Below, piece after piece: positions 35,960 through 61,279 of a stretch of DNA of 64,000 nucleotides (position 1 is its first letter; each line of letters opens with the position of its first letter). Both the position numbers and the translations under genes were made by a program. The notes under the pieces are model-generated. The model searched no databases, was not told the DNA's origin, and saw only the letters and a list, made by a program, of their open reading frames with translations. The DNA comes from Eledone cirrhosa (Eukaryota): contig OZ024754.1 in NCBI GenBank assembly GCA_964016885.1, positions 21,576,001-21,640,000 on the forward strand, given 5' to 3'.

Positions 35960-35978
35960 TATATATCGAAATCACTAG

Positions 35979-36071
35979 ACGTATCTGAGGAACCTGCGAA
36001 TCCAGAGTCAGGTTCGATCCACAAACAGATCGCACCTCGAGCTGTTCGCCGGAGAAACAATTGTAATACGT
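35979..36071 (+). ncRNA. Type I hammerhead ribozyme, long-stem-II family, copy 1 (element about 35966-36185)
   Basis: ACGTAT-CTGAGGA-[62-nt hairpin: CC/GG, GCGAAT/GTTCGC, AGGT/ACCT, CGATC/GATCG]-GAAAC-AATT-GTA-ATACGT. Confidence 0.8.
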
Positions 36072-36194
36072 AATAAATTGTGTTCTGATGCATCACTGAT
36101 TCTTCGTTTTCCATATTATCATACTCTGCTCCGAAGGAGCATAGAGTGCTCAACTGGCATACTGCCTATGCAACCATACGACTTTATATATATA

Positions 36195-36335
36195 TCATTT
36201 CATTCATTTCATTTTACGTCTGCTTTTTCCCTGCTTGCAAGGGTGGGACGGGAACTGATGCTGGCTTGATTTCTACAGCTGGATGCCCTTCCTAACACCA
36301 ACCTCATTTACAGTGAGTGCTGGGTGCTTTTTTGC
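36195..36335 (-). mobile_element. Bipartite RTE-derived non-autonomous element (GGAAGGGCATCC module plus RTE-A 3' tail)
   Basis: Minus strand ...TTGGTGTTAGGAAGGGCATCCAGCTGTAGAAATCAAGCCAGCATCAGTTCCCGTCCCACCCTTGCAAGCAGGGAAAAAGCAGACGTAAAATGAAATGA. Confidence 0.75.
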
Positions 36336-36339
36336 CATA

Positions 36340-36535
36340 GCATCTCCACAACCATTTTGCAGTGGAATGATATGGACCCCAGTCCCTATCATCTCATTTC
36401 TACAGCTGAGTAAACTGGAGCAATGTGAAATAAAGTGTCTTGCTCAAGGAAACAACATATCACCCGGTCTGAGAATTGAACTCACAACCTTTCGATTGCA
36501 AGGCCAATGCTCTAACCACTAAGCCATGTGCCTCC
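36340..36535 (-). mobile_element. tRNA-derived SINE
   Basis: Minus strand GGAGGCACATGGCTTAGTGGTTAGAGCATTGGCCTTGCAATCGAAAGGTTGTGAGTTCAATTCTC, with A and B boxes. Confidence 0.82.
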
Positions 36536-36698
36536 ATATAACAATATATATATATATATTGTTATACTTTGGGAGGGTCATGTTGCCAATAAGAAACACA
36601 TGCACCAGTTGCTTTCACTCCAATTTATTATAAATTTAAGAATTTATAAATTTCCAGTTGATTGGTTGGTTCCACAACCGGACGGTTGTTCATATATT

Positions 36699-36741
36699 GT
36701 CAAAGCTCTTTCGTCACACATTCTGTGACCTCTTCAGTGAC
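36699..36741 (-). ncRNA. Minimal type I hammerhead ribozyme in a pLTR-like element (about 36558-36975)
   Basis: Minus strand GTCA-CTGAAGA-G-GTCACA-GAATG-TGTGAC-GAAA-GAGC-TT-TGAC. The element end TTGTTATACTTTGGGAGGGTCAT is shared with 38197 and 58823. Confidence 0.72.
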
Positions 36742-36991
36742 TGGGGATTCTTTTTGTTTTGTGCCTCTCCTTTGTTCTGTCCTACGCCATCTTGTTTTTG
36801 TGTGTGTTGTGTGCTTAGTTTGCACATGTGTTACATCCGGGGGTCTGTGTGTGTTTTTATTTGTTTATTTACATGTTACTGGTTGGTTGTTTGTTCTATG
36901 TGTGTGTGTGTTTTCATTTTGTCCTTAATTGTAAGTTGTGATGTTGCTATTCCATTCATGTTTTCTATTCAATTTTAATATGTATATATAT

Positions 36992-37490
36992 GTCGGGTCA
37001 CTCTTGAGTGCTACTGGTAACATGTAACCCAGTACAACCTGTCGCATGGTCGGGTCGTCGGCGACTAAACAGGCAACCCCACCAAGTTTACTTGGTGATC
37101 TTAGACACCCTGCAGCACAAAAAACAAAACCTGACAAAGGGCGGAAGAACTCATAAGAGTCAATGGCCATCCAAAAGTGTATAAATATGTATATACACAT
37201 GTACGTATGTATATATATACGTGGGGACATAGAAATAGTTGGGCTGGACACCCGATCGCGTGGTTAAACCACTGGGAGTGAAGGACTCCTAGCCTTTGTC
37301 AGGGCATTCTTCTAGGAGAAGGCAACTCAGGAAACTGAGATAACTCCGATATAAAACCTGCGGCTCAGTAGTTACCGATGATGTTGAGCTTTTCTTCTTT
37401 TCGGGTTATAGCTACTGTCGCTCAGAGAGTGGGATTGACTCAGTGCACAGTCTTTCCTCACTTTAAAAAATATCTTCACACACAGGCATT
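36992..37490 (+). mobile_element. RTE-type 5' UTR-derived element
   Basis: Homologous to 48780-49113 on the opposite strand. Contains a CTAGGAGAAGGCAACTC motif typical of RTE 5' UTRs. Confidence 0.6.
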
Positions 37491-37602
37491 GCACGATAGA
37501 ATTAATTAATAATTATTAATAATGGTATATCGTGCAATGGCCATACTCGATAACAATGGGGCAGCCATCATGTATATATATATGTATACATACATATGTA
37601 TA

Positions 37603-37645
<43 letters not shown>

Positions 37646-37970
37646 GTACGTGTGTCTGTGTATATCTCTGTGTGCATGTATGCGTATAGTTGTGTGACTA
37701 TTTATGTGTGTGAATGTAAGCACATAAGCTACTCTGTATCTGTCAGTATCTCTGTGTGTGTGAGTGGGAGTGTGAGCTGACAAACAGCAGTAATTTTGCC
37801 GACGGAGCAGTGGGTGAGTGATAGCCTATGCTCTGACGGTCAGCGGGCTGCTACAAGTGGTCAGAATAATGATGACGTCACTAACCAGTGACCAACCCAA
37901 GGATGCGCAAAGCGGGTGACGATATAGGCTTGTAGGGCCAGAAAGAGGATATGATCCGAAATCAATAGAC

Positions 37971-38058
37971 GTGTCCGAGGAACCTGCGAGACTAGAGTCA
38001 GGTAGATCCACACACGCATCGCACCTCAAGCTGTTCGCCGGGGAAACAATTGTAACAC
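37971..38058 (+). ncRNA. Hammerhead ribozyme, long-stem-II family, copy 2 (core U4>C variant)
   Basis: GTGT-CCGAGGA-[hairpin]-GAAAC-AATT-GTA-ACAC. Stem I has a G-C pair where copy 1 has A-U. Confidence 0.65.
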
Positions 38059-38196
38059 AATAAACTGAGTTCCGACGCATCACTGATTTTTCGTTTTCGA
38101 TTTTATATATATATATAGATACATATGTGTATATATATATGACGGCGATGGATTTGTTTTGCGAGGTTTTTGATATGAAATTGTGTGTCGAAACAA

Positions 38197-38603
38197 ATAT
38201 TGTTATACTTGGGGAGGGTCATATTGTTGTAATAATATTGCCAGAAATAATAACAGAACACACTCACTGTTTGGTTGGTTTTCGCTTCTGTAACTTTTAT
38301 ATCTCCATAGTTAATTTATTTGGTCAGTTAATTCATGACGGTCAAAAATACAGATATAAACATATATAAAGTCTAACAAAGTTCTTTCGTTGCACATCTG
38401 CAACATCATCAGTGGTACTATTATCATGTTCCCTCCTATTGTATTGTATGTCTACACCATTGATAAACATTGAGGACCAAATATATTAACTATGGAGATA
38501 TAAAAGATACAGAAGTGAAAACCAACCAGACAGTGAGTGTGTTCTGTTATTATTTCTGGCAATATTATTACAACAATATGACCCTCCCCAACTATAACAA
38601 TAT
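38197..38603. mobile_element. Inverted-repeat (pLTR-like) element with arms of about 125 bp
   Basis: 38197-38324 is the reverse complement of 38475-38603. A one-arm relative lies at 58823-58960. Confidence 0.85.
38374..38417 (-). ncRNA. Minimal type I hammerhead ribozyme in the spacer of the inverted repeat
   Basis: Minus strand TACCA-CTGATGA-T-GTTGCA-GATG-TGCAAC-GAAA-GAAC-TT-TGTTA. Confidence 0.68.
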
Positions 38604-38642
<39 letters not shown>

Positions 38643-38759
38643 TGTGTATATATATATGTATATATATATATATGTGTGTATATAAATATATGTATATATA
38701 TGTATATATATATGTATATATATATATATGTATGTATATATATATGTATACATATATAT

Positions 38760-39130
38760 TCTAGGAGAAGGAAAACTCTGATATAACACATGCAACCCTG
38801 ATGGTATCCAATGATGTTGACTTATTCTTATTTTTGGTAAATATCATCTTGGTTAAGAGAGTGGGACTGGCTTTGTGCAGTGCCTTTGCTCACTATAAAA
38901 GCTTCACGGCCAGGCATTGATTTATATCTGGAGATCTCTCTGCACTTGTCATCACATGGTACCATGGGCCCAGCACTAAGTGTCAATAATTGTCACAAGT
39001 GTAGTGTTTGTACCAGAGTTTTTAAGTCGCTGGCTGGACTGAAAAGTCACACTCGTTCAGCGCATCGGTAGGGGTTCTCCTACATGGATATAAAGTAGTG
39101 GCCGTACTCGAAAACGAGTTGGCAGCCACC
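38760..39130 (+). mobile_element. 5'-truncated bipartite RTE derivative (5' UTR piece plus C-terminal C2H2 finger and 3' end)
   Basis: Starts CTAGGAGAAGGAAAACTCTGA and ends ...[25 protein letters not shown] then GTACTCGAAAACGAGTTGGCAGCCACC. An inverted copy lies at 48506-49113. Confidence 0.75.
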
Positions 39131-39211
39131 ATATATATATATATATGTATGTGTATATATATATGTGTATATATATATATGTATATATATATATGTGTAT
39201 ATATATATATG

Positions 39212-39262
<51 letters not shown>

Positions 39263-39529
39263 ATATATATATATATGTGTATATATATATGTGTATATAT
39301 ATATATATGTGTGTATATATATATGTGTATATATATATGTGTGTATATATATATGTGTATATATATATGTGTGTATATATATATGTGTATATATATATGT
39401 ATGTATATATATATATGTTTATATATATATGTATGTATATATATATATGTGTATATATATATGTATGTATATATGTGTATATATATATGTATGTATATAT
39501 GTGTATATATATATGTGTATATATATATG

Positions 39530-39563
<34 letters not shown>

Positions 39564-39661
39564 ATGTGTATATATATATATGTATATATATATATACATA
39601 TATATGTATATATATATATACATATATATATGTATATATATATATACATATATATATATAG

Positions 39662-39700
<39 letters not shown>

Positions 39701-39708
39701 TACATATC

Positions 39709-39752
<44 letters not shown>

Positions 39753-39785
39753 GATACATATATATATAGATACATATATATATAG

Positions 39786-39822
<37 letters not shown>

Positions 39823-39966
39823 TATGTACATATATATATATATATATATATGTAGATACATATATATATACATACATATGTATATATATATACATACATA
39901 TGTATATATATATATACATATGTATATATATATATATACATATGTATATATATATATATACATATG

Positions 39967-40019
<53 letters not shown>

Positions 40020-40029
40020 GTATATATAT
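39131..40029. repeat. About 900-bp compound (TA)n/(TG)/(CA)/(GA) microsatellite
   Basis: Directly visible. Similar long tracts lie at 43322-43875, 46985-47156, 47980-48505 and 56665-57056. Confidence 0.97.
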
Positions 40030-43000
40030 CATCATCATCATCATCATCATCATTTTACGTCAGGCTTTTCCCTGCTTGCAAGGGTGGGACGGGTCTTATT
40101 CAGCACAGCATCTCTCCACTCGTCACGGTCCCTCGTCCCCCGTGAGCTTCAATGATCTGAGGTCTGTTCTCACCACCTCCGCCCAAGTTTTTCGTGGTCT
40201 ACCTCTACCACGTCTTCCTTCAACTGGCATTTCCTGGCACTTCTTCACCCATCGGTCATCCTCCATGCGCATCACATGTCCATACCACCTCAGTCTCCTC
40301 TCCCGTACACTACATTCTATCCCTCTCAGACACAGTTTCTCTCTCAACACATTTATGCTGGGTCGTTCACGCACATTTACACTGCACATCCAACGGAGCA
40401 TGCTTGCCTCATTTCTCTCCAGCCGTCGCATATCCTCTGTGGTTGCTGCCCATGTCTCACTACCATGCAGCATCGCGCTCCTCACACAGGCATCATACAA
40501 CCGGCCTTTCGTACGCAGGGAGAAACCCTTCTTCGTCAACAGAGGAAGCAGCTCCCTAAACTTCTTCCAACCCGTCCTTATTCTAGATACTATGGTCTCG
40601 GAACACCCTACTCCCATGCTAATCTGATCTCCTAGGTACCGGAAGCTATCCACCACTTCTATAGCGCCCTCTCGCATTTGAAAAATGTGTCTATCAGTGC
40701 GACTTCTACTGTCTAATTTCCCTGTACATCTACTGCATACGTATTTCTCCCTACCTGTTAGTTTGCCTGCTATCCCGTTACATCTCTTGTGTACCCAGGA
40801 CCTGCATTGTGTGCATTTTATAGAATTTATGCCAGTTCCTTTTCTGCATATCGAACATGGCCATTTCCCTGACAGAATCAGGGTTTTGTCCTCTTTTCTA
40901 CTCATCAACACTTTTGTCTTAGCTAGATTTACTCTCAGTCCTCTTGCTTCCAACTGCTGTTTCCATAGCCGGAATTTATTCTCTAGCTCCTCTACTGATT
41001 CTGCTATAAGAGCCAGATCGTCAGCATAGAGAAGTTCCCATGGACAGCCAGTCTTAAACTCCTCTGTTATGGCTTGGAGGACTATAATGAACAAGAGCGG
41101 GCTGAGGACCTAACCCTGATGTACTCCTACTTGTATCTGGAATTCCTCACTAAACTCCATTCCTACCCTGACTTTACTGAGAGTACCTCTGTACAAAGTT
41201 TGCACTGTCCTCACAAGCCATTCCTCAACACCTAGCTTCCTTAGGGACCACCAGATGACAGATCGGGGTACCCTATCAAAGGCCTTCTCTAGGTCAACAA
41301 AGGCTAAGTATAGTGGCTTATTCTTCTCTAAGAACCTCTCTTGCATTTGTCTCACCAAGAAGAGGGCATCTGTTGTACTCTTCCCAGGCACAAAACCAAA
41401 CTGCATCTCATCTAGTTTGACCCTTTCTCTAATTAGTTGTGCTAAAATCCTTTCTGCCACTTTCATAACCTGATCTATCAGTTTTATACCCCTACAATTG
41501 CTCATCTCCAAAGCATCCCCTTTACCTTTGTAGCAATTTATGAGAATACTGCTGCACCAGTCTTTGGGTATGACACCACCATATATAGCCTGATTGATGA
41601 TGCGTGCAACCAGTTTAGTGCCTACGTCCCCTGATGCCTTCAGCATCTCAGCAACTATTCCCGATGGTCCGGCCGCCTTACCATTTTTCATTTCCCTAAT
41701 CGCCTCTTGGACCCTATATTCGTCAATCTCAATAGCTGGTCCCTCTGTCAGATCTACCAAGGGTAATTTCTCTCTCTCCCATTCGTTCTCCACATTCATC
41801 AGTCTCTCATAATGACATTTCCAGGCCTCCTTTTTCTGGTCATTCGTGACACTAAGTACACCGGCATCATCCCGGACACATTTATCTCCAACAACATCCT
41901 GATTTGCATTGACACGCTGCCTTGCAATGTGGAACACCGCACGCCTCTGATCTTCCCGTCGCAGAACATTGGCAAACCTCCTACTCTCTGCCTCCCTGCG
42001 TGCTAAGTACACCTGACGTCTAGCTTCTCTCTTAGTGGCTGTATATTCTTCCCTACTCCCACCCTTTTTCCAAGCCTTCCATGCTAGTCTTTTGTCTCTA
42101 ATAGCCTTATCTACTGTGCTGTTCCACCACCAGGTCACTCTCTGTCTGGTTGGAGCTCTGCTCCAGCCACAGGTTTCATCAGTAGCCTGCAGCAAGTTGT
42201 CACGTAAGAACTTCCAGTTATTATCTATGTCATACGTCTCTAAATCGTCTTCTTTTTCGTCATATACATCTTGAAGGGCTTTCCTAAATTTGAATTTTAG
42301 TGAAAGGTCTTTTAGCTTCCAGACCTTTCTTCTCCACACCTTCCTATATGTCTCATTCCATCTCTTGCTTACTGAGATATCACTAACAACTAACCTATGC
42401 TGTGGGGTACATTCTTCCCCAGGGTATGCCTTGGTATTAGACACTATCTGCCTGTCCCGCTGCCTAACTAGCAGGAAGTCAATCTGGCTTATGTGCTCAC
42501 CAGATTTGTAGGTTATTAGGTGATTGGCAGGTTTCTGGAAGTTTGTGTTGCAAATAGTCAATGTACTTGCATCACAAAATTCAAGAAGTCTCACTCCTTC
42601 TTCATTTCTTGAACCGTAACCGTGCCCACCATGTACCCCAGTATAACCATCCTGGAGCTGTCCAACATGACCATTGAAGTCTCCTGCTAGCATAACGATG
42701 TCTCCGTCCTCTGTCATTGTGGTTGTTTGCAAAAGTTGCTCATAAAAGCAGTCTTTCTCATCTTTGCCTAGGCCTGCTTGGGGAGCATAGACCGAGATGA
42801 TTGTCAGTAGTCTCCTACCTACAACTAATCTAAGCTTAATTATTCGATTACTAACTCGAACTACCTCTATTGTCTTATTGATCCATTTCTCAGCCAGGAA
42901 AATGCCTACTCCTCCTAACCCATCATCCTTACCTACCCAGAATAGCTTATAGCTAAGACGCTTGCCTACGACTAGTCTCGCAGAGGCACCTCTCCATCTC

Positions 43001-43310
43001 ACCTCTTGCACGCAGCACACATCCACCTGCCTTCTCTCCAGCATCTCCGCTATTTCAGCAGATCTACCTCTGAGAGTGCCAACATTAAGTGTTGCAACTC
43101 TGAGATGCGACGTCTTCATATTTTTCTATGCTGTTTTGTTGCTGTGCTGATAAGCTTTTTGGCATTGATACACTGGTTGGATGCCCTTCCTAACACCAGC
43201 ACCACTTTACAGCATGGACTGGGTGCTTTTATTTGTGCCACCAGCACTAGAGAGGATGTCTTACTAGACTGAAGGGCCCTCTCTACCCCTCCATTTTACA
43301 GCATGGTCAT
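40030..43310 (-). mobile_element. Near full-length RTE-clade LINE, family A (APE endonuclease, RT, PHD-like finger), with one nonsense codon
   Basis: ORF 43119-41110 (TLNVGTL, VQEVRW, AGDFNGHVG, IDFLL, QFGFVPGKST, FVDLEKAFD, GVHQG*) continues in frame as 41094-40123 ([35 protein letters not shown]). (GAT)n tail at 40030-40052. Confidence 0.97.
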
Positions 43311-43770: not shown

Positions 43771-43801
<31 letters not shown>

Positions 43802-43812
43802 CATATATATAC

Positions 43813-43875
<63 letters not shown>

Positions 43876-43880
43876 CGCAT

Positions 43881-46850
43881 AAATAAATTATACAATTTTT
43901 AAAGTTGTTCAAATCATTTAATAGCTGACAATCGTTTCTTCCAAACTCTCGTTTGGAATCATCAGAGCATTATCAATGTTTGCACATAATTACCCTCCTA
44001 TTCAACTGAACAATAATATAGACGCATATAAATTGATGTTGTGAGCAACAGTTTCGTATTTGCAGGGTGGAATGGATGTAACATATATTTTACGAGAATT
44101 GTACAATAATTGTACAAACATTCAAGTTCAAATTCAAATTCAAATCAAATTAAAATCAAATTAAAAGCAAAAGCATGGAGTTAAATACATGCAACAGATA
44201 AAACAAGAGAATAGTCCAATCATTAAAGAGGCATTTAGAAAGGAAGAGTACATTAACAATTCATTTGCAGGCGTGTGGTGAGTGCAACTGCATAAGTCAT
44301 GTATATGAGGAGACAAGCAAAGCTATTATGCATATATAGATGAGTAAATACTGCACTTTAAGCAAATATGTTAACGTATTAGAATCTATGGTGGATGCTG
44401 TATGCTGATAGCGTTCGAATTTGTGTGTGTTGAGAAACGTAGTGTTTGCAGACTTTTCCATCACATATGTTGAATTAAATTTTAGTTAATGTTTATATTG
44501 AATGTTTTAAGTTAGTTAGTGCAATGGATTGTAAATTAGTTTTAATGTATTCATATTCATAGACTATATTTCCGGTAAATTTTCCAATTGTTAATTTCCG
44601 GAAGTGAATAAGGGGAGCTAATGCCGAAGGGGAGGTAACTAGCTAATTAAGTTCAATTCAGTTATTAAAATTCTTTGCTCTAATACACAATATAATGTGA
44701 TACCATTGAATATCTATTACATAATGCTGTATATTTATACCTGATTTTAAATACAGTCTATTTTACTATCATACATTTAAGGTCCCCTTAGATTGTTATG
44801 TATTCATTACTGGACAAGATATATGTTATGAAGAATTGTATAGCTGTTAATATGTCTAAATAGATATATCATATGTGTAATAATATACATTATTGTTTTA
44901 AAAGTTAATCCCTAATATACAATGCTATTACATTTTATATTTAATAATAAATGTATATATACTTTATTATTATTATATACATGTTAAATATTTAAGTATT
45001 TAATTATACAATTATAAATGCATATATAGTTTATTATCACATATTACATTAAATGTCTCTACATACATTATACATATCCATTACTGTATATAATATAATT
45101 AATCTATTGTGGTTATATCACAAGGTGGTAACTCTATGTCTAATTCTAACTGTTATTGCAGAGCATAAGGTTAGAGATGAATAGGAGTTGTGTAGCGGAA
45201 AGAGTTGGTCGAAGGGTTTGTGGTTGTGGGTGCTGCTAAGTCCTAGATGTGTAGTGTTAATGGTGGTGGGGAATTCAAATCTGACATTGTTGTATACTAA
45301 CAGCTAGGTTTAAAGTTATGGAACGAGTGCTGGTACTGGTGTTGGCACGAGGAAAATGTCTCTGACTTTCTATTAAGGAGGTCTGGTTTCGAAAAGATTA
45401 TAGTATGGGTCTCCAGAAGGCAGAGATTACACATTTTATTCGGTGGTTTATACGATGAGGCCCTACCTACTACTTCCATTGCAGTGTAAATGGTCTATTC
45501 CTAGTTTTCAGAGAGTGTATGTAGCTAGATAAAGAAGTGGAGCTGGCTAGATTGTGTTTCTTGAAAGAGTGGAGGTGCGAGTTGTATCTCGTCTTGAAGT
45601 TGTTCGAAGTAGAACCTATATATGTTTTAGATTTGTTTGCGTTGACAGTGCATAAGTAGATGATGTCTTTGGTTAAGCAATTATTACCTAAGGGGCAAGT
45701 TCTATTAGTTCTACAGTTACATTTATTCTGGGTGTTAGCTTGCCGGTTCCTATGTTGTGAAGAATTCTGGTTGCTAGGGTAGCACTAGGGTAATGATGTC
45801 TATCATTCGTATTGATTTCATTAGTGCTATTATCATTATTACTATTATTACTACTATAGTTTACAGGTACTAAGTTTACCTCCTGTTGTGTTTTAATTAT
45901 TTGGAAATAGTTATTAATCTTCCTTTTATTACTACTAGCTATATGGTATGCTATGTTAGGTGTGGTGGAGTACGATATTTTAATTGTATTTTTATTGATA
46001 AGGCTATGGTACTTGTGGCCGGTCGGGAAGTTTTTTTCTAAGATTGAGAAGAAAGCCTTAGGCAAGTTGGTAGAGACGTTTATATTGAAAAGGGGGTTGA
46101 AGAATGTATTAGTTCTCCTATTTTTGTTTATATTATTGTTTTTTGAGGTATTCATATCCCTGTTTAAATTATTATTGTGGTGTTTACTTTGGTGCGAGTT
46201 AAGTTTGGTATTAATCTTCGTCCTAGAGTTATAGTGGCTAGTGCTTTTACTATTTTTCCTCATGGCCATATTATGAGAAATAATGTTGTAACTATGTGAT
46301 TTTATAGGTAGGAATTCAATCTCATATGTCCTGATTTAGCTAAGGCCTCATTATAGTATTGTGAATTGTTGTTAAATATGGTTTCATTATATGATAGATT
46401 AGAGATTCTATTAGATATTCCTTTGGTAATGGAGTTTAATATGGATTTAGGGTGGTTAGAGTTGGTATTCACATAAATTAGTTTTTCGTTAGGTTTATGA
46501 TAGGGTGTGTATATTTTAGAGTCTAGGCTAAGGGTAGCGTCAAGGCAGTTGACGTTTTTAGTGTTTTTATCTAAGGTGATACTTAAGTTGAAGTTTTTGA
46601 AATTTTGTGTAACTGTTTCCTAGTTCTTTCTATATTAAATGTTTTATAGTCTATGAGAAGAAGCGCATCAATGCGGTATAAACCACCTGTAAATATGAAA
46701 CTGTTGCTCACAACATCAATTTATATGTATCTATATGTTCAGTTGAATAGGAGGTTAATTATATGTGCAAACATTGATAATGCTCCAATGACTCCAAACG
46801 AGAGCTATTAAATGATTTGAACAACTTTGATAATTGTATAATTTATTTAT
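43881..46850 (-). mobile_element. 5'-truncated Penelope-like retroelement (Neptune type) with inverted pseudo-LTR
   Basis: Minus-strand remnants include the RT C-terminus (NCLDATL..YTPYHKPN..IYVNTNSNHP), FFNPLFNINVSTN..KNFP..KISYS, a Cys linker CNC..CPLGNNCL, GIY-YIG (IIY..TYIGST..FKTRYNSH) and CNLCLLE..LLNRKSE. Inverted repeat arms at 43881-44070 and 46683-46850. Confidence 0.9.
43919..43972 (-). ncRNA. Type I hammerhead ribozyme in the Penelope pLTR
   Basis: Minus strand TAATGCT-CTGATGA-TTCCAAAC-GAGA-GTTTGGAA-GAAAC-GATT-GTC-AGC(T)ATTA. Perfect 8-bp stem II with a GNRA loop and a GUC cleavage triplet. Confidence 0.88.
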
Positions 46851-49260: not shown

Positions 49261-52200
49261 ATTTAAAACCTCTCGCTAACTACCCCATTTGTTTTTCTAA
49301 AATAACAATCTTGTTTGTTTAAATTTGGCCGAAAACAATTCTAGGATTTATAAAATGGCCTCATTGTCTCTCTTATCCTTTACCCCGCCCCCCACTATAT
49401 CGTATTACGCGCTGGCTAGTTCACCCTCAGTTCACCCTTTCAATCACTCCCTTCTCTCACCAAATATAAACAAACCTGTTGCGAGGTACGAATCTCAGAA
49501 TTTGTCAACGCTTTAAATGGTCAGACCCTCGTCGTTCTCTGCGAAGTATAATGTAAATGCCATTTTTCTTATCTCTCTCCAGCCTATCGGTCCATTCATT
49601 CATATTGTTCTAAATAATCTTCTCTCTGCTATTGGTCCATTCATTCATATATCCGTACCTTCGCCCAGAATCCAATCTTTTGCTCTCTCTCAATGCTATT
49701 CTATAATTCTGTCTGGTTGTTTCTAAATAATCTTCTTGTATTTTAAAACCCCATTATTCGCTTATTATTACTGTTATATGCTTCCCCAATTATGCCCAAA
49801 ATTCAAATATTTCATTTAAAACCTCTCGCTAACTACCCCATTTGTTTTTCTAAAATAACAATCTTGTTTGTTTAAATTTGGCCGAAAACAATTCTAGGAT
49901 TTATAAAATGGCCTCATTGTCCCTCTTATCCTTTACCCCCCCCCCCCACTATATCGTATTACACGCTGGCTAGTTCACCCTCAGTTCACCCTTTCAATCA
50001 CTTCCTTCTCTCACCAAATATAAATAATCTTCTCTCTGCTAACTACCCCATACCGCTCCCTCCCGCCCCCACTCTCCACCTTATTATTTGGACCAATCAC
50101 AAGTCAACGGCCTATGCTATCACTTCTGGCTGCTTTTCGATATGATGGATGGACTAAGGAATTTCTGGAGAGTCTGAAGAATCTGGACACTCGATGACAA
50201 TGCCAAAGATAACGACAAATTCACCTCATGCTGCCGGACGAAAGGGCAAGGCCCCTTCCTCTTTGTTTCGGCTGCGGATGGCCAACATAACCCCAACCCC
50301 ATCCCCCTCACCCCTCCCTGCGCCCCATCCTCCAAACACAATCCAAAACTTCAGAGTTGGTACCATGAATGTAGGCACCTTAAAAGGCCGCTCTAACGAG
50401 GTTGTAGAAATGCTTGAACGTAAGGAGGTTGATGTTTGCTGTATCCAAGAGACCAGGTGGAGGGGCAGGTCTGCTAGATGTGGGTAAAAAACGTTGCTAT
50501 AAGCTTTTCTGGGTGGGAAATGACAATGGGATAGGTGGGGTAGGAATCATGTTAGCAGAAAAATGGGTGGATAAGATAATAGATGTAAATAGAGTAAATG
50601 ACAGAATAATTAAAATAAGACTTGTTCTAAATAGAACTACTGTGACAGTATATCTGCATACGCGCCCCAATCCGGACTGCTTGGCGCTATAAAAGACAGA
50701 TTCTATGAGACACTGATGCTCACTACCTCCCAAATAACCGACAGTGACTATATAATTATTGCTGGCGACCTAAATGGCCACGTTGGACAACATTGTGACG
50801 GCTATGACGGAATCCACAGAGGCTATGGGTTTGGTACTAGAAACGAGGAAGGCTCCAGAATCCTGGAATTCTGTGATGCAAATAACCTAACTATTTGTAA
50901 CACTAACTTCAAAAAACGAGACAATCACTTGATCACCTACAGATCAGGGGAACATACCAGCCAGGTAGATTATATCCTTACCAGAAGACGTGACAGAGTG
51001 TCTGTTGTAAACACTAAATCCCTCCCCCATGAAGAATGCACCTCCCAACATTGACTGATAATTAGCGACCTCATAGTCAGGACGAGACGTACTAGACAGC
51101 AGAAGAGGGCTATCCTCAGGAGAAAAATATGGAAGCTAAAGGACCCTACAGCCAGAAATAAATTTAAAAGCATATTACTTGATGCTTTCGACAGTAAGGA
51201 AGAGCAATTAGAGTCGTACAATATAGAGGAACAGTGGGAATTTCTGAAAGCAAACCTGCTGATGGCGGCAGACGAGGTCTGTGGCTGGAGCAGGCCTGTA
51301 GGCAAGAGGAGAGTAACATGGTGGTGGAACAGTAAGGTGGAGGAGTCAATTAAGGCCAAAAAGCAGGCTTGGAAAGTATGGCGGGATGGGGGAAGTAGAG
51401 AGGACTATCAAGTGGCCAGGAGGGAAGCTAGGAGACAAGTGTACTTCGCAAGAAGGGAAGCAGAGGAGAGAAAGTTCAAGCATGTTCTACAACGCGAGGA
51501 CCAAAAACGTGAGGTGTTCAGGATTGCTAAGCAATGTGTCAAGGAAAACCGTGATATTGTCGAGGAGAAGTGTATACTAAATGATGATGGCATACTTGCC
51601 ATCACTGACGCTGATAAGAAGGTAGCTTGGAAGTGTCACTACGAAAGGCTACTAAATGAGGAGAATAAATGGGAGAAAGACAGTCTTCCCCCACATCGAC
51701 CCAATAGAGGGACCAGCAGTGTTAGTTGAAGGTAGTATAATAAGTAAGGCAATCAAAGATATGAAGACGGGTAAGGCGGCTGGGCCTTCGGAAATAGTTG
51801 CTGAGATGCTGAAAGCCTCTGGAACGGTAGGACACACCATGGTCACCCGGATAGTAAACCAAGTCATACAGAATGGGGTTGTTCCGAAGGACTGGCGTAG
51901 CAGCATCATCATTAACTGCTACAAGGGTAAAGGAGACGCCCTAGATAGGAGTAACTATAGAGGCATTAAATTAATCGCCCAGGTCATGAAGGTCACGGAA
52001 AAAGTAATAGCGCAACTAATCAGAGAGAGAATTGATCTAGATGAAATGCAGTTCGGGTTTGTATCAGGCAAAAGTACCACAGACGCTCTTTTCATTGTAC
52101 GACAACTACAGGAGAAGTACCTAGCTAAAAGTAAACCCCTATACTTAGCTTTTGTTGACTTGGAGAAAGCCTTCGACAGAGTTCCCCGTTCCATTATCTG

Positions 52201-53720
52201 GTGGGCCCTTAGAAAACTAGGTGTTGATGAATGGCTTGTGAGAGCTATACAAGCCATGTATAAAGAAACAGTCAGCAAGGTTAGAATTAACAACGAATAT
52301 AGTGAAGAGTTTAGCGTAAAAGTAGGTGTTCATCAGGGCTCTGTTCTTAGCCCCCTACTATTTATTATTGCCCTTCAGGCTATAACAGTGGAGTTCAAGA
52401 CCGGTTGACCATGGGAACTCCTATACGCAGATGATCTAACGCTCATAGCTGAATCAATGGCCGAGCTAGAGAAGAAATTCCAAACATGGAAGCACAGCCT
52501 AGAATCAAAAGGCCTTAAAATTAACCTGGCTAAGACTAAAGTTCTAGTTTGTAGGAAAGAAAATAAGGCGCCGGTCCCTTCCGGGAAATGGCCATGCTCA
52601 GTGTGTAGGAAAGGCGTAGGTAGAAACTCCATTTTATGTCCCAAATGCAAAATATGGGTGCATAAAAGATGTAGTGGGATCACAGGTAAGCTAACTAAGA
52701 ACACAGATTTTACATGTGGCCGGTGCTCTGGTGCAATAAGTAGCAGCAAGTGCCCACAAAATGCTAGCTCTTTCAATTGCGCAGAGGGTTCTATAGAAAT
52801 AGTGGACAGCTTCCGTTACCTGGGTGACAAAATCAGCAGTGGGGGAGGGTGCTCCGAAAGTACAGTAGCTAGAATCAGAACTGGATGGAAAAAGTTCAGA
52901 GAGCTTATACCACTATTAGCCGCTAAACGGTTCTCCCTAAAAATGAAAGGCAGGCTGTCTGATGCCTGCATACGAACAGCAATGTTGCATGGCAGTGAGA
53001 CCTGGGCATTGTGTGCAGAGGATATACGCAGACTAGAGAGGAACGAAGCTTGCATGCTCCGCTGGATGTGTAATAGTAATATACGTGAACGGCAAAGCAT
53101 AAACGAACTAAGGGAAAAATTAGAAATAAGAGGGATCAGATGTTGTTTACTTGAGAGAAGACTACGTTGGTATGGTCACGTGATGCGCATGAAAGACGAC
53201 AGCTGTATAAAAAAGTGCAGGGCAATAAAGATAGACGGTAGCCACGGAGTATGCAGACCCAGAAAAACCTGGGACGACCTGATAAATTCCGACCTCACAC
53301 ACTTACACCTCTCCAAGACAATATCACTGGACCAAGATCTTTGGCGGTACTCAGTAATAGAGAAGACCCGCCTTACCTAAATACAAAGTAAAACCTACTA
53401 CAGTCAGTAGGCATCTCTAACAAAATACACCCCCGTCCCATCCACACCGCCCCTTTCAATGTAAAGTTATGTTGGTGCCACAACATCCAGGCTGAAACAA
53501 ATGAGATCGTTTAAGTGTCACAACAAAAAAAAACACACAGTCCACGCTGTAATGTGGCCGTGTAGGCAACTCGGTAAAAACCTCCCAGTCCCACACTGTA
53601 AATGTGGTTGGTGTTAGGAAGGGCATCCAGCTGTAGAAATCAAGCCAGAATCAGTTCCCGTCCCACCCTTGCAAGCAGGGAAAAGCGGATGTAAAATGAA
53701 ATGATGATGAATGATGATAA
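49261..53720 (+). mobile_element. Full-length but disabled RTE-clade LINE, family B, with tandemly repeated 5' region
   Basis: APE and RT pieces at 50194-53380 (TMNVGTL, IQETRW, AGDLNGHVG, QFGFVSGKST, YADD, PHD-like CSVC..CPKC..HKRC..CGRC). Broken by frameshifts near 50478, 50650 and 51690 and by stops at 51052 and 52406. 49261-49470 recurs at 49814-50024. The exact 5' boundary is uncertain. Confidence 0.92.
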
Positions 53721-53869
53721 ATATATATATATATACAAACATATGTATATATATATCTATATATACATACATATGTACATATGTATATATATATATATAT
53801 ATATAGTGGTAGAACACTGGAAGGTAATATCCGTAGTGGTAGAGCACTCAGTCCATGGGACGAGTTAGG

Positions 53870-54019: not shown

Positions 54020-54139
54020 TATATATATATACATACATATGTGTATATATATATATATATACATACATATGTATATATATCTATATATACATACATATGT
54101 ATATATATATATATACATACATATGTATATATACATATA

Positions 54140-55580: not shown

Positions 55581-55811
55581 TATATATATATATATATTCA
55601 TATGTATGTGTATATATATATATATATATATATACACGTATGTATATATATATATATGAATAAATTTAGTCCTTCATCAGTGATCTTCCAACCTTAATTG
55701 GTATTTCATCGCTTTAATACATACGTATGTATATATATATATTTATATATATATATATATGAAAGACGTAAACAAGAAAATTATGAAAATCGACTTACTT
55801 ACTAAAATTTC

Positions 55812-55892
55812 ACTTCAACTAATTAGTTTCTGTAAGGGAATAAATATGGTTACGGAGCGTACCCACAGAGAAACCTTACGTCATCAGGAAGT
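55812..55892 (-). ncRNA. Type I hammerhead ribozyme
   Basis: Minus strand ACTTC-CTGATGA-C-GTAAGG...CCTTAC-A-GAAAC-TAATTA-GTT-GAAGT. Confidence 0.82.
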
Positions 55893-56449
55893 CTATTCTC
55901 AGCTAAGCTCCCAGGCAATGTGAGGACACTGGGAACTTATATAAAAATAATTCAGTGGATTCTGTGGGTACGCTCCGTAACCATATTTATTCCCTTACAG
56001 AAGTTGGAGTGAAATTTTAGTAAGTCGATTTTCATAATTTTCTTATTTACATCTTTCATATAATTGTTCTGCATCCCCTTGCATAGAACCACAAAGTTAC
56101 TAAGACAAAACATATATTTGCTAGCATAGGTATGCATCTGTATACATATGTTAGTAGATATACTAATTCTTTATAATTATCTCCAAATTATTTGTTGAGC
56201 AAAACTTGCCGAAATTACTACTATGGTTCATGGTATTGGCTAGGCCCTTGTCTTATTAGCACTCCACTCCTCACTGATTAACCTCAGTGTCACGTGATTG
56301 ATTCTTTTGAATTTGCCACTGACCAAGTAGGCAGTGAATTTTTTCAATGTCTTGGAATTTAGTCCCCGCTCGCTTTTTTCCATCCACTGAATTATTTTTA
56401 TATAAGTTCCCAGTGTCCTCGCATTGCCTGGGAGCTTAGCTGAGAATAG

Positions 56450-56530
56450 ACTCCCTGATGACGTAAGGTTTCTCTGTGGGTACGCTCCGTAACCATATTT
56501 ATTCCCTTACAGAAACTAATTAGTTGGAGT
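56450..56530 (+). ncRNA. Type I hammerhead ribozyme
   Basis: ACTCC-CTGATGA-C-GTAAGG...CCTTAC-A-GAAAC-TAATTA-GTT-GGAGT, with the stem III palindrome AACTAATTAGTT. Confidence 0.82.
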
Positions 56531-56777
56531 GAAATTTTAGTAAGTAAGTCGATTTTCATAATTTTCTTATTTACGTCTTTCATATAATTGTTCTGCATCC
56601 CCTTGCATAGAACCACAAAGTTACTAAGACAAAACATATATTTGCTAGCATAGGTATGCATCTGTATGTATATATATATACATATGTATGTATATATATA
56701 TACATATGTATGTATATATATATATATATATACATATGTATGTGTATATATATACATATGTATGTATATATATATAC

Positions 56778-56832
<55 letters not shown>

Positions 56833-56866
56833 TACATATGTATGTATATATACATATATACATATG

Positions 56867-56916
<50 letters not shown>

Positions 56917-56980
56917 TACATATGTATGTATATATATATATACATATGTATGTATATATATATATATATATATACATATG

Positions 56981-57038
<58 letters not shown>

Positions 57039-57056
57039 CATATGTATATATATATA

Positions 57057-57517
57057 TGTAGCGAAATCTGTCCACGCCTTGAACCTCGGGTGACACCTAA
57101 AAGTCAAATTATAGGTCACCATCCTTTCCGGCGTGGACAGGTTCATGCGTGGGCGATCCCTTCGAGGTGGGAGACAGAAAGCGACAGGTATATAAAGACT
57201 GTATGATCCCACGTCTAACATATAGTAGATCGAAACAGTACGCTATAGTATAGCTATGTAAAGATTCACCACAACTACAGGCCGCCGAGGTCTACAGACA
57301 ACCACAGACCATTACTCTCTCTCTCTCTCCTGGTCTCAGACTACACCAGCCTCATGAACCAACAACAAAATAACATCGTCAACCTTCGCAACTCGTGATA
57401 ACTTGTTAATCATTCTTTTTGACTGAAGTGAAGTAAACCTTTTTATATATAAAGTAAATCAGCTATTCCTGTTATTTCATCTAACAACCATTACTAATAC
57501 CTTTGTTACCAACTACA
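57057..57517 (+). mobile_element. Probable solo LTR
   Basis: Begins TGTAG and ends CTACA, about 460 bp. Has TATAAA near 57191 and AGTAAA polyA-like signals near 57432 and 57453. The target duplication is not clean. Confidence 0.5.
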
Positions 57518-57567
57518 AATACCCTTCGTTAAATATATATATACATATGTATATTATATATGTATAT

Positions 57568-58292
57568 ACGATATATTAACAAATGAAAACTATATTTATA
57601 AAACCATATTTATTTCATTATACATATTCCAAGGACACCAAGTTAAATTATTTAAATTATGGTGTGCTTTCATCAGATAAAATATAATATAGAACAGTTT
57701 TATAAATAAATATTGACATACGCTTAAAGAATGCGACCATTTCTGTTGGAAGCTCCCGGATAGTGGGGTTATAAATTTATTTATACTATTATGCAAATAA
57801 GTGTTGGATATTTTAAAATCACAGTAGATTTAAAATAAGCTGTTGGGGTATGGAGAAAGGGAAAGAAAAGAAAGAGAACAAAAGAAAAAAGAGAAAAAGA
57901 GCAAACTCTAAGAGGAAAATAAGAAAACAAGAAAAAGAGAAAGAGAAGAAAAAGAAAAGAGAAAAGAGAAAGAGAAAGAGAAAGCTCTAAGTGATAGGTT
58001 GTTATATTAGCGTAACTTTTAAGATGAAGTGAAAAAATAAATATTTATTGGATGAGTAAAGAAGAGTAAATAAGCGTGAATGGAAAATAAATAAATAACA
58101 GGAGAATTTTAATCAGTGTTTAAATATGATTAAATATTTAGTTTATCAATTAAATTATCCATTAAATTATTGAGATCCATACATTAAAAATTGAGATCTA
58201 TATATTATTAAAACTATATATTATTAAAAAAACTATATACTATTAAAAGAATATATTCATATATATACATACGCACACATACATATATATAC

Positions 58293-58330
<38 letters not shown>

Positions 58331-58783
58331 CTACACATACATACATATACAGACATACAATAAAGGACTTTTTATGTTTAAGATATAGGAATTTTCCTAA
58401 ACTTATAGATTTTTCGGAGAAACCAGAGAAAAAGAACTGGAGAAAATCATTTCTATGTAATAGCAAAACAGCGTGAAGGAAATTAAGTTATTTACTTATA
58501 TCAAATGTTATAAATGTTAAGATAATAAAGGAAATTTAAGATTATACAAACCTTATGTTATTATACAAACCTTAAATTATTTAATAAATTTTTATAAATT
58601 TTATATCTAATAGATCCACCTATTATGTAATTGTGACTGTTATTATATAAGTTTGTTTATCACGAACCTTAAGAAAACCCTTATAACCGAGTGCATTCGA
58701 ATTGTATGTATATATATATATATATACATATATGTCCCCCACATATATACACACAGACACACACACACATACAGGTAGATATG

Positions 58784-58824
<41 letters not shown>

Positions 58825-59670
58825 TTGTTATACTTGGGGAGGGTCATATTCGTGTAATATTGCCAGAATTAATAACAGAACACACTCACTGTTTGGTTGG
58901 TTTTCGCTTCTCGCTGTCTTTTATATCTGCGATCTAACTTACTCGGTCCTCAATGTTGCCATATATATATAGAGAGAGAGCTATACAGTACATAGTATAA
59001 TTGAAGTACATAATATATAAAATAAAATAAAAAATAAAAAATAAAATAAAAATGAATTATATTACGATTTGGAAATATATTCTTACAATTATAAGCAATA
59101 TAACTTTAAAGCAATATAATTTTTAAAAATATTACAGAATATTTTAAGATATAATTTAAAAATAAGAATATGTCTAAAAAAATTCAGCATAAAAATTTAA
59201 ATTTTTACAGAATATTTTAAGATATAATTTTAAAATAAGAATATGTCTAAAAAAATTCAGCATAAAAATTTAAATTTTTTTATATAATATTTAACTCTTT
59301 AGTATGTTTAACTTAATTTTTATAACTATATGGGAAATTTTCAAAGAAGAAGAAAGAGAAACTTTCAAAGAAAATATTTTCCCCTTTTAAGAGCTTTCAG
59401 TATGTTTATCTAGAAAAATTTTTTTAGACTTGAGAGTTTTTTTGCATAATAGTATAAATAACTTTATAACCCCACTATCCGGGAGCTTCCAACAGAAATG
59501 GTTGCATTCTTTAAGGGTATGTCAATATTTATTTATAAAACTGTTCTATATTATATTTTATCTGATGAAAGCACACCATCATTTAAATAATTTAACTTGG
59601 TGTCCTTGAAATATGTATAATGAAATAAATATGGTTTTATAAATATAGTTTCCATTTGTTAATATATCGT
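57568..59670. mobile_element. ORF-less element bounded by inverted pLTR-like repeats of about 230 bp carrying hammerheads
   Basis: 57568-57797 is the reverse complement of 59441-59670. The interior is A-rich and includes a 74-bp tandem duplication at about 59132-59280. Confidence 0.8.
59556..59625 (+). ncRNA. Type I hammerhead ribozyme (the mirror copy at about 57613-57682 has GAAA>GGAA)
   Basis: TTTTAT-CTGATGA-AAG-C-ACACCA...TGGTGT-C-CTT-GAAA-TATGTA-TA-ATGAAA. Confidence 0.72.
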
Positions 59671-59759
59671 ATTTTTACTCCAATAATTTGTTGAGTGCTT
59701 TATATAAGTTATAAAAATATTTGCTTGTTGTATCCCAACAATTTAAATAGAACTTCTAC

Positions 59760-59816
<57 letters not shown>

Positions 59817-59849
59817 TATGTATGTATATATATATATATACATCTATCT

Positions 59850-60042
59850 TAGGCGGGTAAAATTCCTGAGATCCATGGACGAGTTCTCTCCAGCAGTCTC
59901 TGTCCCTCATTATCGCTGCCATGTCCTGCGTCTCCAACAGACCAGTGTCTGTGCTTCGGGCATCAACATACGTTAACCTTGGTCTTCCTCTTCTAGTGTG
60001 TCCATGTAGGGGCTCCCACATGCTCACCGACATCCAGAGTTG
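59850..60042 (-). mobile_element. 3' fragment of a third RTE-like LINE
   Basis: Translates WEPLHGHTRRGRPRLTYVD...DTGL...AAIMRDRDCWRELV. Confidence 0.75.
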
Positions 60043-60139
60043 ACATATATATACATATGTATATATATATATATAAATGAAGTAATTCCGTCGGAAAAGT
60101 CCAGGAAAAAAGAGTGCTCTAGGTAGGTAACAGAGCTTA

Positions 60140-60357
60140 ATAGTTATGTAATAAACAACATAAGGCAATTATTCCATTTACCAGTGGTTTCTTAAAAGCA
60201 AAAAATTTTGCTTTCAATCCTCAGAATGAAAAAATCCTGGTCTCTCTCTCCTGAGACCAGGATTTTTTCATTCTGAGGATTGAAAGCAACATTTTTTGCT
60301 TTTAAGAAACCACTGGTAAATGGAATAATTGCCTTATGTTGTTTATTACATAACTAT
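60140..60357. ncRNA. Near-perfect palindrome (arms of about 105 bp) encoding a hammerhead on each strand (60173-60230 minus; 60267-60324 plus)
   Basis: Plus strand TTCATT-CTGAGGA-TTGAAAGCAA-loop-TTGCTTTTAA-GAAAC-CACTG-GTA-AATGGA, with a mirror copy on the minus strand. Confidence 0.85.
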
Positions 60358-60387
60358 ATGTATATGTATATATATATATAACATATG

Positions 60388-60430
<43 letters not shown>

Positions 60431-60567
60431 ATTAAAATACTGGAGCGTGTTGGAGTTAAACACCCTCTTCGTATTATAGAAATGACAGTATGTATTGAAG
60501 GCTTCTTTGTTTTATTTTCATAATATATATATATATATATATATATACATATGTATATGTATATACA

Positions 60568-60660
60568 TATGAAATAAAGTGTCTTGCTCAAGGAAACAAC
60601 ACATCACCCGGTCCGAGAATTGAACTCACAACCTTTCGATTGCAAGCCTACTGCTCTAAA
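60568..60660 (-). mobile_element. SINE head fragment
   Basis: Near-identical to 36425-36515. Confidence 0.8.
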
Positions 60661-60680
60661 CAACATAAATATATATATAT

Positions 60681-60820
60681 ATATTTCAGAGGTACTGTGC
60701 TGTTTTTTCAGTATGCCCTCATCAGATAAAATATATGAATTGATGTATGACATACCTCAACTGTCTTGATGAGGGCATACTGAAAAAACAGCACAGTACG
60801 TCCGAAATATATATAATAAA
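60681..60820. repeat. Inverted repeat made of two partial hammerhead copies
   Basis: Minus arm TTTAT-CTGATGA-GGGCATACTG..CAGTACCTCT-GAAATATA. Plus arm TTGATGA-GGGCATACTG..CAGTACGTCC-GAAA-TATATA-TA-ATAAA. Confidence 0.7.
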
Positions 60821-60962
60821 ACATATTTTGATTATGTGAACGTATTCATTTATTAATATTTTGAATAATATTACTAACTCCAGAAAACTTCCTTGTAGAG
60901 TGCTTTTAATCTATTGTAAAACTATATTCATTGAGTAATCAATGAATCATATTAATCTTTGG

Positions 60963-61016
<54 letters not shown>

Positions 61017-61136
61017 GGTGTTGGATGCTTAAAGCGTCCGTATCCGGTAGGTCGTTTGAGTACTCGATGCTCTCACAGAGCAGAGTATGATATCACAAAA
61101 AAAGAGAATCAGTGTTGCGACGAATGGAATTTATTG

Positions 61137-61232
61137 GACATATTACAATCGTTTCTCTGGCGACCATCTCGAAGCACGATCGATGTGATGATCGAACTTG
61201 ACTCTGAAAATCGCAAGGTCCTCAGATACGTC
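61137..61232 (-). ncRNA. Hammerhead ribozyme, long-stem-II family, copy 3 (element about 61013-61240)
   Basis: Minus strand GACGTAT-CTGAGGA-[GCGATT/GGTCGC, AAGT/GCTT, CGATC/GATCG]-GAAAC-GATT-GTA-ATATGTC. Confidence 0.8.
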
Positions 61233-61279
61233 TTGATTCTACGAAGCAGATTTTCCAAAATCCATGATTTTTGGAAAAT

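What the first reader, a model, noticed from the sequence alone, without database searches (positions are those of the whole stretch)
35966..61240. Three diverged copies of a long-stem-II hammerhead family show covariation
Seen: copies at 35979-36071 (+), 37971-38058 (+) and 61137-61232 (-) differ substantially but keep pairing. Stem I is ACGTAT/ATACGT, GTGT/ACAC and GACGTAT/ATATGTC. Stem II has GCGAAT/GTTCGC versus GCGATT/GGTCGC and AGGT/ACCT versus AAGT/GCTT, with apical CGATC/GATCG. The pair closing stem II next to the core is non-canonical (A.A, A.G, C.A) instead of the usual G-C. Downstream sequence (ATCATACTCTGCTC...GAGCAT.GAGT.CTCAA) is shared by copies 1 and 3. Inference: a non-coding element of about 220 bp or more whose RNA structure was under selection, with a variant hammerhead architecture.
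Basis: partly seen in the sequence, partly recalled or inferred. Interest (0 to 1): 0.75.

Follow-up and report, generated by a model that had tools for sequence, protein, structure and literature searches.

The report
Long-armed hammerheads of Hydra-clade Penelope elements
These three repeats are cut-off ends of a known kind of animal jumping gene, each carrying a predicted self-cutting RNA with an unusually long arm whose fold is conserved across eight lineages in this genome; it likely cuts only weakly, and it sits just before a conserved signal that may end transcripts.

Summary
The three copies are real, but they are not a 220-bp non-coding element. They are 5'-truncated 3' ends (pLTRs) of Hydra-clade Penelope-like retrotransposons from three subfamilies, inserted in (TA)n. 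Full-length copies read pLTR-ORF-3'UTR-pLTR. A core pattern matches 5,019 times in the genome against 1 for the control. Across eight subfamily majorities (43-93% identical), 180 of 200 stem cells pair, with 19 compensatory pair types; none of 1,041 neutral simulations reached either value. One cited covariation (AAGT/GCTT) is private to copy 3 (1 of 30). The pair next to the core is free rather than always non-canonical: G-C in the most diverged subfamily. Added here: U4-to-C in 1,306 of 5,019 matches, a conserved AG/G internal loop, and AAUAAA/AUUAAA just after stem I in 8 of 8 subfamilies and a short-arm sister family. Copies run unbroken through the predicted cut site, so uncut or re-joined RNA was the template. 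Cleavage is untested. This scan reported long-arm Hydra hammerheads before on other DNA of this genome. Verdict: new variant of a known kind.

The parts
35966..36182 (+). Copy 1: 5'-truncated 3' pLTR of a Hydra-clade PLE, subfamily A, with tail, between (TA)n runs
   Evidence: 92-95% identical to the pLTRs of full-length L096
35979..36071 (+). Type I hammerhead of copy 1: stem I 35979-35984/36066-36071, core 35985-35991, 62-nt stem II arm 35992-36053, stem III with self-complementary loop 36057-36064, predicted cut after A36065
36005..36042 (+). Conserved 2x1 purine internal loop in the arm (GAGUC 36005-36009 opposite GAGC 36039-36042) and the distal hairpin it encloses
   Evidence: GARUC/GAGC in 8 of 8 subfamily majorities; 3' strand a fixed 11 nt from the core
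36072..36077 (+). AAUAAA directly after stem I; predicted poly(A) signal (inferred)
36120..36182 (+). PLE tail between the two copy termini (about 36119 and 36182), with hairpin 36123-36147; likely the two reverse-transcription start sites (inferred from PMC11167929)
37650..38104 (+). Copy 2: about 450-bp 3' end, subfamily C, stopping at the first terminus (no tail); start approximate
   Evidence: 82-85% to full-length L095
37971..38058 (+). Hammerhead of copy 2 with U4-to-C core (C37976), A.G closing pair, predicted cut after A38054; AAUAAA at 38059-38064; apical stem decayed
61013..61256 (-). Copy 3: 3' pLTR, subfamily B, with tail (about 61089-61013), followed by (TA)n
   Evidence: 88-91% to the pLTRs of full-length L097
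61137..61232 (-). Hammerhead of copy 3: core starts 61225, 63-nt arm, C.A closing pair, predicted cut after A61144; AAUAAA at 61135-61130

Best explanation
The three copies are 5'-truncated 3' ends of Hydra-clade Penelope-like retrotransposons, and each holds a structurally conserved long-armed type I hammerhead that likely works as a weak, conditional ribozyme, predicted to cut only some transcripts at each pLTR while uncut or re-joined RNA serves as template. Shown: element anatomy (pLTR with hammerhead and tail, ORF starting about 170 nt after the cut site, long 3' UTR, second pLTR); insertion into (TA)n; two fixed 3' termini downstream of the cut site; cDNA running unbroken through the site; selection on the fold. 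Inferred: the element's RT starts at one of the two termini flanking the tail hairpin, as measured for PAc. Inferred: stem III (2 bp plus a self-complementary loop) needs a second copy or the bound element protein to fold. Inferred: the loosened base of stem II and U4C keep cutting slow enough for full-length templates to survive, while cutting of read-through transcripts releases unit-length RNA. Inferred, weaker: the AG/G internal loop is a docking or protein-binding site.
For: Full-length elements: 8 of 20 ORF-anchored loci hold a hammerhead-bearing pLTR at both ends, 4.4-4.9 kb apart in the three measured. ORF motifs RMRWRAF, SDKTGN, CxCX5C, CxxC before E and CxH after N, no CCHH fit the Hydra definition (PMC8557442 section 11). 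Termini: of 261 core-intact copies, a simple repeat starts at +45-59 in 130 and at +125-139 in 82. 10 of 20 ORF-anchored loci start 119-594 nt upstream of the cut site; only one duplicated event (L106/L108) starts at it. Covariation: 24 of 28 alternative pair states between subfamilies keep pairing, 18 by double change, against 180 of 393 and 13 of 393 for deviations within subfamilies; 0 of 1,041 tree simulations reach 180/200 paired cells or 19 compensatory types. C3, G5, A6, G8, A9, G12, A13, A14, A15.1, U16.1 and A17 are the same in 8 of 8 majorities. Loop III changes from AAUU to AUAU in subfamily D and stays palindromic. Folds that capture the core lie within -2.8 to +0.8 kcal/mol of the active fold in six subfamilies, but are 8-12 kcal/mol worse in G and H. 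Papers: metazoan PLE hammerheads cut poorly and as dimers (PMC4209133); the PAc hammerhead cuts only with its protein and is not needed for insertion in vitro (PMC11167929).
Against: No cleavage or RNA data. Monomer folding gives stem III a probability of at most 0.16. U4C lowers activity in vitro (PMC3088659 passage), yet 1,306 of 5,019 matches carry it, which also fits loss of catalysis. Loop III of subfamily H (AUUU) is not palindromic. Subfamily B3 has U4C without a stronger core-capturing helix, so the tuning idea fits only one of two U4C origins. Energies ignore tertiary contacts. The structure was drawn from the same sequences, and II.1, II.4, I.5 and I.6 were left out of the count (one search includes them). 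ORFs were linked to subfamilies A, B, B3, C, C2 and weakly H (N-terminal hits only); none was found for D or G.
Confidence: 0.62

Rival explanations
1. The hammerhead and the hexamer behind it form one 3'-end cassette. AAUAAA/AUUAAA directs polyadenylation before the RT start sites, and cutting 7-15 nt upstream uncouples the RNA body from that signal, as in mammalian Clec2 3' UTRs. This would sort transcripts into mRNA, decay or template. It can coexist with the best explanation.
For: Hexamer at +7 to +15 in 8 of 8 majorities, the one change being to AUUAAA. Present within 25 nt in 227 of 261 copies against 4.1% of random windows. Present in 6 of 6 copies of a short-arm sister family (4 AAUAAA, 2 AUUAAA). 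The spacing moves with stem I length, as a linear signal would, and a U-rich tract follows. Clec2 precedent in PMC6765202 (passage). That these are the two commonest poly(A) hexamers is recalled, not from a call.
Against: 0 of the other 18 short-arm hammerhead hits have it, and most published Hydra rows lack it, so it is not general. The copies are related by descent, so 227 of 261 is not independent. A-rich strands next to stem I can be tertiary contacts. No RNA 3' ends were seen. Use of the signal in the 5' pLTR would end transcripts before the ORF.
Confidence: 0.25
2. The fold is kept as a binding platform for the element's protein or for translation of the ORF about 170 nt downstream, and catalysis has lapsed in the younger subfamilies.
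For: U4C fixed in three majorities, free closing pair, cDNAs cross the site. PAc catalytic mutants still insert in vitro. Hammerheads in 5' leaders are tied to cap-independent translation in viruses (PMC13725137), although there a core mutation abolished the effect.
Against: Eleven core positions are unchanged over 43-93% identity while the flanks turn over; a palindromic loop III is kept by double change in D.
Confidence: 0.13
3. A stand-alone non-autonomous element (retrozyme- or SINE-like) of about 220 bp.
For: Most copies are short and lack coding sequence.
Against: 5' ends range from under 10 to over 300 nt upstream of the core among 260 copies with no fixed start. Longer copies reach the endonuclease C-terminus. 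No short tandem monomer was seen in the loci read.
Confidence: 0.03
4. The covariation is chance among decaying repeat copies.
For: True for the AAGT/GCTT change in copy 3; folding z-scores are unremarkable.
Confidence: 0.02

Closest known systems
Hydra clade of C-terminal EN+ Penelope-like elements (Craig et al. 2021, PMC8557442), including Hydra-1_Obim
   Same: RW(K/R), DKT, CxCX5C, CxxC and CxH motifs, no CCHH, (TA)n targets, type I hammerhead near the 3' end, short stem III. The tail hairpin (CTC-stem-loop-stem-GAG) is also visible at the 3' ends of Hydra-2_Ajap and Hydra-2_Amil (seen by eye).
   Different: Stem II arm 57-63 nt against 3-7 bp stems with 3-10 nt loops in the 26 Hydra rows of File S2. 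Unit 4.4-4.9 kb against under 3 kb. A.A, A.G, A.C closing pairs and U4C are not in that table. Hydra-1_Obim has a short canonical hammerhead and is a different family.
[quoted passage not shown]
   Same: Type I, palindromic loop III, inverted copy pairs close by, predicted dimer dependence and low activity.
   Different: Those have helix II of up to 7-8 bp, a conserved G10.1-C11.1 pair and an extra nucleotide after A9. Here the arm has about 20 bp in four helices and the closing pair is free.
PAc/Poseidon of Anolis (Frangieh et al. 2024, PMC11167929)
   Same: Two internal RT start sites that define a tail; AT-rich targets; uncut RNA used as template.
   Different: Different clade. The PAc hammerhead overlaps the start codon; here the cut site lies about 170 nt upstream and the tail is about 75-80 nt, not 30-40.
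PLE-X1 hammerheads of spike mosses and Chara (File S2 of PMC8557442)
   Same: Long stem II regions (34-nt and 29-nt loops) and a C.A closing pair occur there.
   Different: EN-minus Chlamys-related plant elements; long loops rather than a covarying multi-helix arm.
Natural core variants (Perreault et al. 2011, PMC3088659)
   Same: U4C (a viroid variant) and a U10.1.U11.1 mismatch are documented as weakened but tolerated.
   Different: Rare single cases there; here U4C is fixed in whole subfamilies, 1,306 exact matches.

Membership tests
Hydra-clade PLE | Single ORF with RT and C-terminal GIY-YIG endonuclease, no N-terminal EN | tested here: met
   RT pieces followed by EN at the C-terminus in broken genomic copies
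Hydra-clade PLE | RWK motif and DKG changed to DKT | tested here: met
   RMRWRAF (R for K) and SDKTGN; definition
Hydra-clade PLE | CxCX5C linker; CCHH absent; CxxC and CxH around conserved E and N | tested here: met
   CNCRVGEEC; one C between VVY and YIG; CKLCLSE then N...CRH
Hydra-clade PLE | (TA)n insertion, pLTRs, inverted truncated copies, tail | tested here: met
Hydra-clade PLE | Placement in the Hydra clade on an RT tree | not tested
   reference proteins were seen only in the paper supplement and compared by eye; two searches gave no usable relatives
Hydra-clade PLE | Generally short (<3 kb) with a canonical hammerhead (typical, not diagnostic) | tested here: not met
   4.4-4.9 kb between hammerheads; 57-63 nt arm
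Type I hammerhead ribozyme | Conserved core CUGANGA, GAAA, UH at a three-way junction | tested here: met
   11 positions invariant in 8 of 8; U4 is C in 3 of 8 (a documented variant)
Type I hammerhead ribozyme | Stems I, II, III supported by covariation | tested here: met
   the two stem III pairs are invariant, so they give no covariation
Type I hammerhead ribozyme | G10.1-C11.1 closing pair (usual, exceptions known) | tested here: not met
   G-C in 1 of 8 majorities; exceptions
Type I hammerhead ribozyme | Loop I/loop II tertiary contact | tested here: inconclusive
   no terminal loop near the core; a conserved AG/G internal loop about one turn out is a candidate only
Type I hammerhead ribozyme | Site-specific self-cleavage | not testable with these tools
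   needs a bench assay
Non-LTR retrozyme | Short non-coding monomer in tandem arrays, independent of an ORF | tested here: not met

The most novel reading that the evidence does not exclude
A retrotransposon lineage has built an RNA switch: a detuned hammerhead with a long arm carrying a conserved docking loop, fused to a poly(A) signal and placed upstream of the RT start hairpin. Cut, polyadenylate or read through would decide whether a transcript becomes mRNA, is destroyed or is copied. The subfamily series, from G-C closure and a strongly favoured active fold in G/H to loose closure and U4C in the others, would record that tuning and offer a natural test of what PLE hammerheads are for.
Probability: 0.22. 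Interest if true: 0.72.

Novelty: new variant of a known kind. Interest (0 to 1): 0.43.

Why it matters
What hammerheads do in Penelope-like elements is still open (PMC8557442 and PMC11167929 say so). This lineage gives eight natural versions of one ribozyme with graded core and closing-pair changes, thousands of copies with readable ends, and a neighbouring poly(A)-like signal, so short RNA assays can test the question. It also shows that over 5,000 hammerhead-like motifs in one animal genome have an arm long enough to be missed by Rfam (no hit for copy 1) and probably by standard descriptors.

Tried and rejected
Rfam: no hammerhead among the 150 listed of 203 window hits and no hit at E<=10 for copy 1. 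Single-strand folding: not better than shuffles. RNAalifold recovered the stem II arm only, not stems I and III. Pfam on two ORF pieces: nothing significant. Protein relatives: none among 2,350 candidates, weak evidence. Sequencing runs: no RNA holder listed; four runs of unknown kind gave contigs only, with loose ends at the two termini, and say nothing on expression. The long-arm pattern in metagenomes (10 hits) and viral contigs (1 hit): none folds into the arm, so treated as chance; other animal genomes could not be searched. A fixed 5' start for short copies: not seen (the 20-50 nt excess may come from how queries were chosen). Neptune, Nematis and Naiad membership: rejected on motifs. 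Core capture by the stem II 3' strand as a general switch: predicted strongly only in subfamily B (P about 0.5), at most 0.07 elsewhere. Likeness of stem I to the Drosophila promoter element RGACGTGY: exact only in subfamily C, not pursued. Lunse et al. 2016 (PMC5785218) was not held; it may describe further PLE hammerhead variants.
Full report
Observation. The three hammerhead-like copies are at the stated places. A covariance model built later from 36 genomic copies scores them at 159, 132 and 123 bits, the next hit in the window at 21 (relatives of the copies are in the model). Rfam finds nothing for copy 1 at E<=10. Folded alone, none beats shuffles.

What they belong to. Each copy has thousands of look-alikes in the 3.0-Gb genome (3,783, 2,246 and 2,465 first-look candidates, 40 scored each; these are not copy numbers). 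Copies end in (TA)n, are variably cut at the 5' side and often have an inverted partial copy in front. One copy runs upstream into an endonuclease C-terminus and another downstream into an ORF start. Searching with that ORF start and fetching 20 loci gave full-length elements: pLTR, ORF of about 2.8 kb, long 3' UTR, pLTR. Eight of the 20 hold a hammerhead-bearing pLTR at both ends. The ORF pieces show RMRWRAF, SDKTGN, CxCX5C, CxxC and CxH, and no CCHH. These are the diagnostic marks of the Hydra clade (PMC8557442: passages, section 11, supplement parts 1, 2 and 52 and a supplement search). I built no RT tree. The host is probably a cephalopod; that is inferred from likeness to Hydra-1_Obim and from earlier notes, not established by a call.

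Scale and subfamilies. A pattern of core, 52-62 nt, and GAAAC..GTA gives 5,019 exact matches against 1 for the reversed control; 1,306 have C at position 4. Five more searches gave subfamilies C2, B3, D, G and H beside A, B and C, 30 best loci each. Their majority sequences are 43-93% identical around the motif. Copies are 90-98% identical to their own majority, with G the most diverged (best hits, so biased upward). Further variants with U-A and U.U closing pairs appear in the listing and were not collected.

Covariation. On 36 near-majority copies of six subfamilies, 93.5% of cells pair and 9 of 28 pairs change on both sides; slid partners pair at 25-42%. Across eight majorities and 21 pairs, 24 of 28 alternative states keep pairing and 18 are double changes; deviations of 240 copies from their own majority keep pairing in 180 of 393 cases and are double in 13 (four mostly mismatched pairs left out). 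With those four included, 180 of 200 cells pair with 19 compensatory types; 1,041 simulations on the tree with matched parsimony length reached at most 170 and 13. Selection acted on the masters.

Architecture. Eleven core positions are invariant in 8 of 8. U4 is C in C, C2 and B3, two origins on the tree. The arm is 57-63 nt. The pair next to the core is A.A, A.G, A.C, C.A, C.A, G.U, U.G or G-C; the second pair is always C-G; the third takes five pair types; the fourth is a pyrimidine mismatch in six and G-C in G and H. A GARUC/GAGC internal loop is kept in all eight at a fixed distance on the 3' strand. Stem III is 2 bp with loop AAUU, AUAU or GAUU, a CpG-decayed mix in G, and AUUU in H. Folds that capture the core are within -2.8 to +0.8 kcal/mol of the active fold in six subfamilies and 8-12 kcal/mol worse in G and H (nearest-neighbour energies only).

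Context of the cut site. Among 261 core-intact copies, a simple repeat starts at +45-59 in 130 and at +125-139 in 82. These two termini flank a hairpin-containing tail, as the two RT start sites of PAc do (PMC11167929, parts 1-2 of 4 read). The ORF starts about 170 nt after the site. Of 20 ORF-anchored loci, 10 begin 119-594 nt upstream of the site, 4 begin 18-63 nt after it, 2 near-identical duplicates begin at it, and 4 begin further in. The template was therefore uncut or re-joined RNA; my data do not separate these. AAUAAA or AUUAAA follows stem I at +7 to +15 in all eight majorities and in 227 of 261 copies, against 4.1% of random windows. It is also in 6 of 6 copies of a short-arm sister family, one of which lies in this window, and in 0 of the other 18 short-arm hits. 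I read it as a likely poly(A) signal; this is untested.

Mechanism. Most likely the element protein binds its RNA near the tail, nicks (TA)n and starts cDNA at either terminus, leaving mostly truncated 3' ends like these three (inferred from PAc). The hammerhead likely cuts a fraction of read-through transcripts once paired through loop III or helped by protein (inferred from PMC4209133, parts 1-2 of 4 read, and PAc), and weak activity preserves templates. Rivals are a poly(A)-coupled switch, a non-catalytic binding fold, a stand-alone short element and chance.

Known and new. Hammerheads in PLE pLTRs, the Hydra clade, closing-pair mismatches and U4C are all in print (PMC3088659 section 8 and passages, PMC7229834 passages). 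Seven library searches showed no report of a 60-nt covarying arm in Hydra elements or of an adjacent poly(A) signal. PMC5785218 was not held, the library lacks most subscription papers, and I did not open the supplements of PMC4209133 or the 2026 bioRxiv preprint (part 1 and passages read); these could hold similar variants. PMC13725137 (abstract, first part of Results, Discussion), PMC6765202 and PMC2377424 (passages) were used for context. Earlier notes of this scan describe long-arm Hydra hammerheads elsewhere in this genome; I read them after reaching my own reading, and they are not independent support.

Verdict. Real and selected; a new variant of a known kind; interest 0.43.

Noticed in passing
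window 43890-46830 (minus strand): A second, 5'-truncated Hydra-type element: thumb and endonuclease pieces at 46505-45336, a short-arm hammerhead at 43968-43924 (8-bp stem II, GAGA loop, AUUAAA at 43922-43917) and an inverted pLTR piece near 46830-46690.
   Followed up: partly
window 60146-60350: Head-to-head pair of short-arm hammerheads of a third family (stem III like that of Hydra-1_Obim), forming a long inverted repeat; no poly(A) hexamer after stem I.
   Followed up: partly
window 1-about 15000: Satellite with a 29-bp unit, about 500 copies.
   Followed up: no
window 40757-41705 and 51747-52695: Inverted pair of 949-nt arms, 70% complementary, 10 kb apart.
   Followed up: no
window 60679-60811: Long palindrome between (TA)n runs, possibly another inverted pLTR pair.
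   Followed up: no
L065:306-3734 (minus strand): Open 1,142-aa RT frame of a LINE-like element near a subfamily-B copy.
   Followed up: no
L037, L108, L295: U4-to-C cores also occur in 3 of 6 copies of the short-arm sister family, so the change recurs beyond the long-arm lineage.
   Followed up: no
window 36120-36147 and published Hydra-2_Ajap, Hydra-2_Amil 3' ends: The first tail hairpin keeps the same frame in a sea cucumber and a coral family, a candidate RT start signal.
   Followed up: partly
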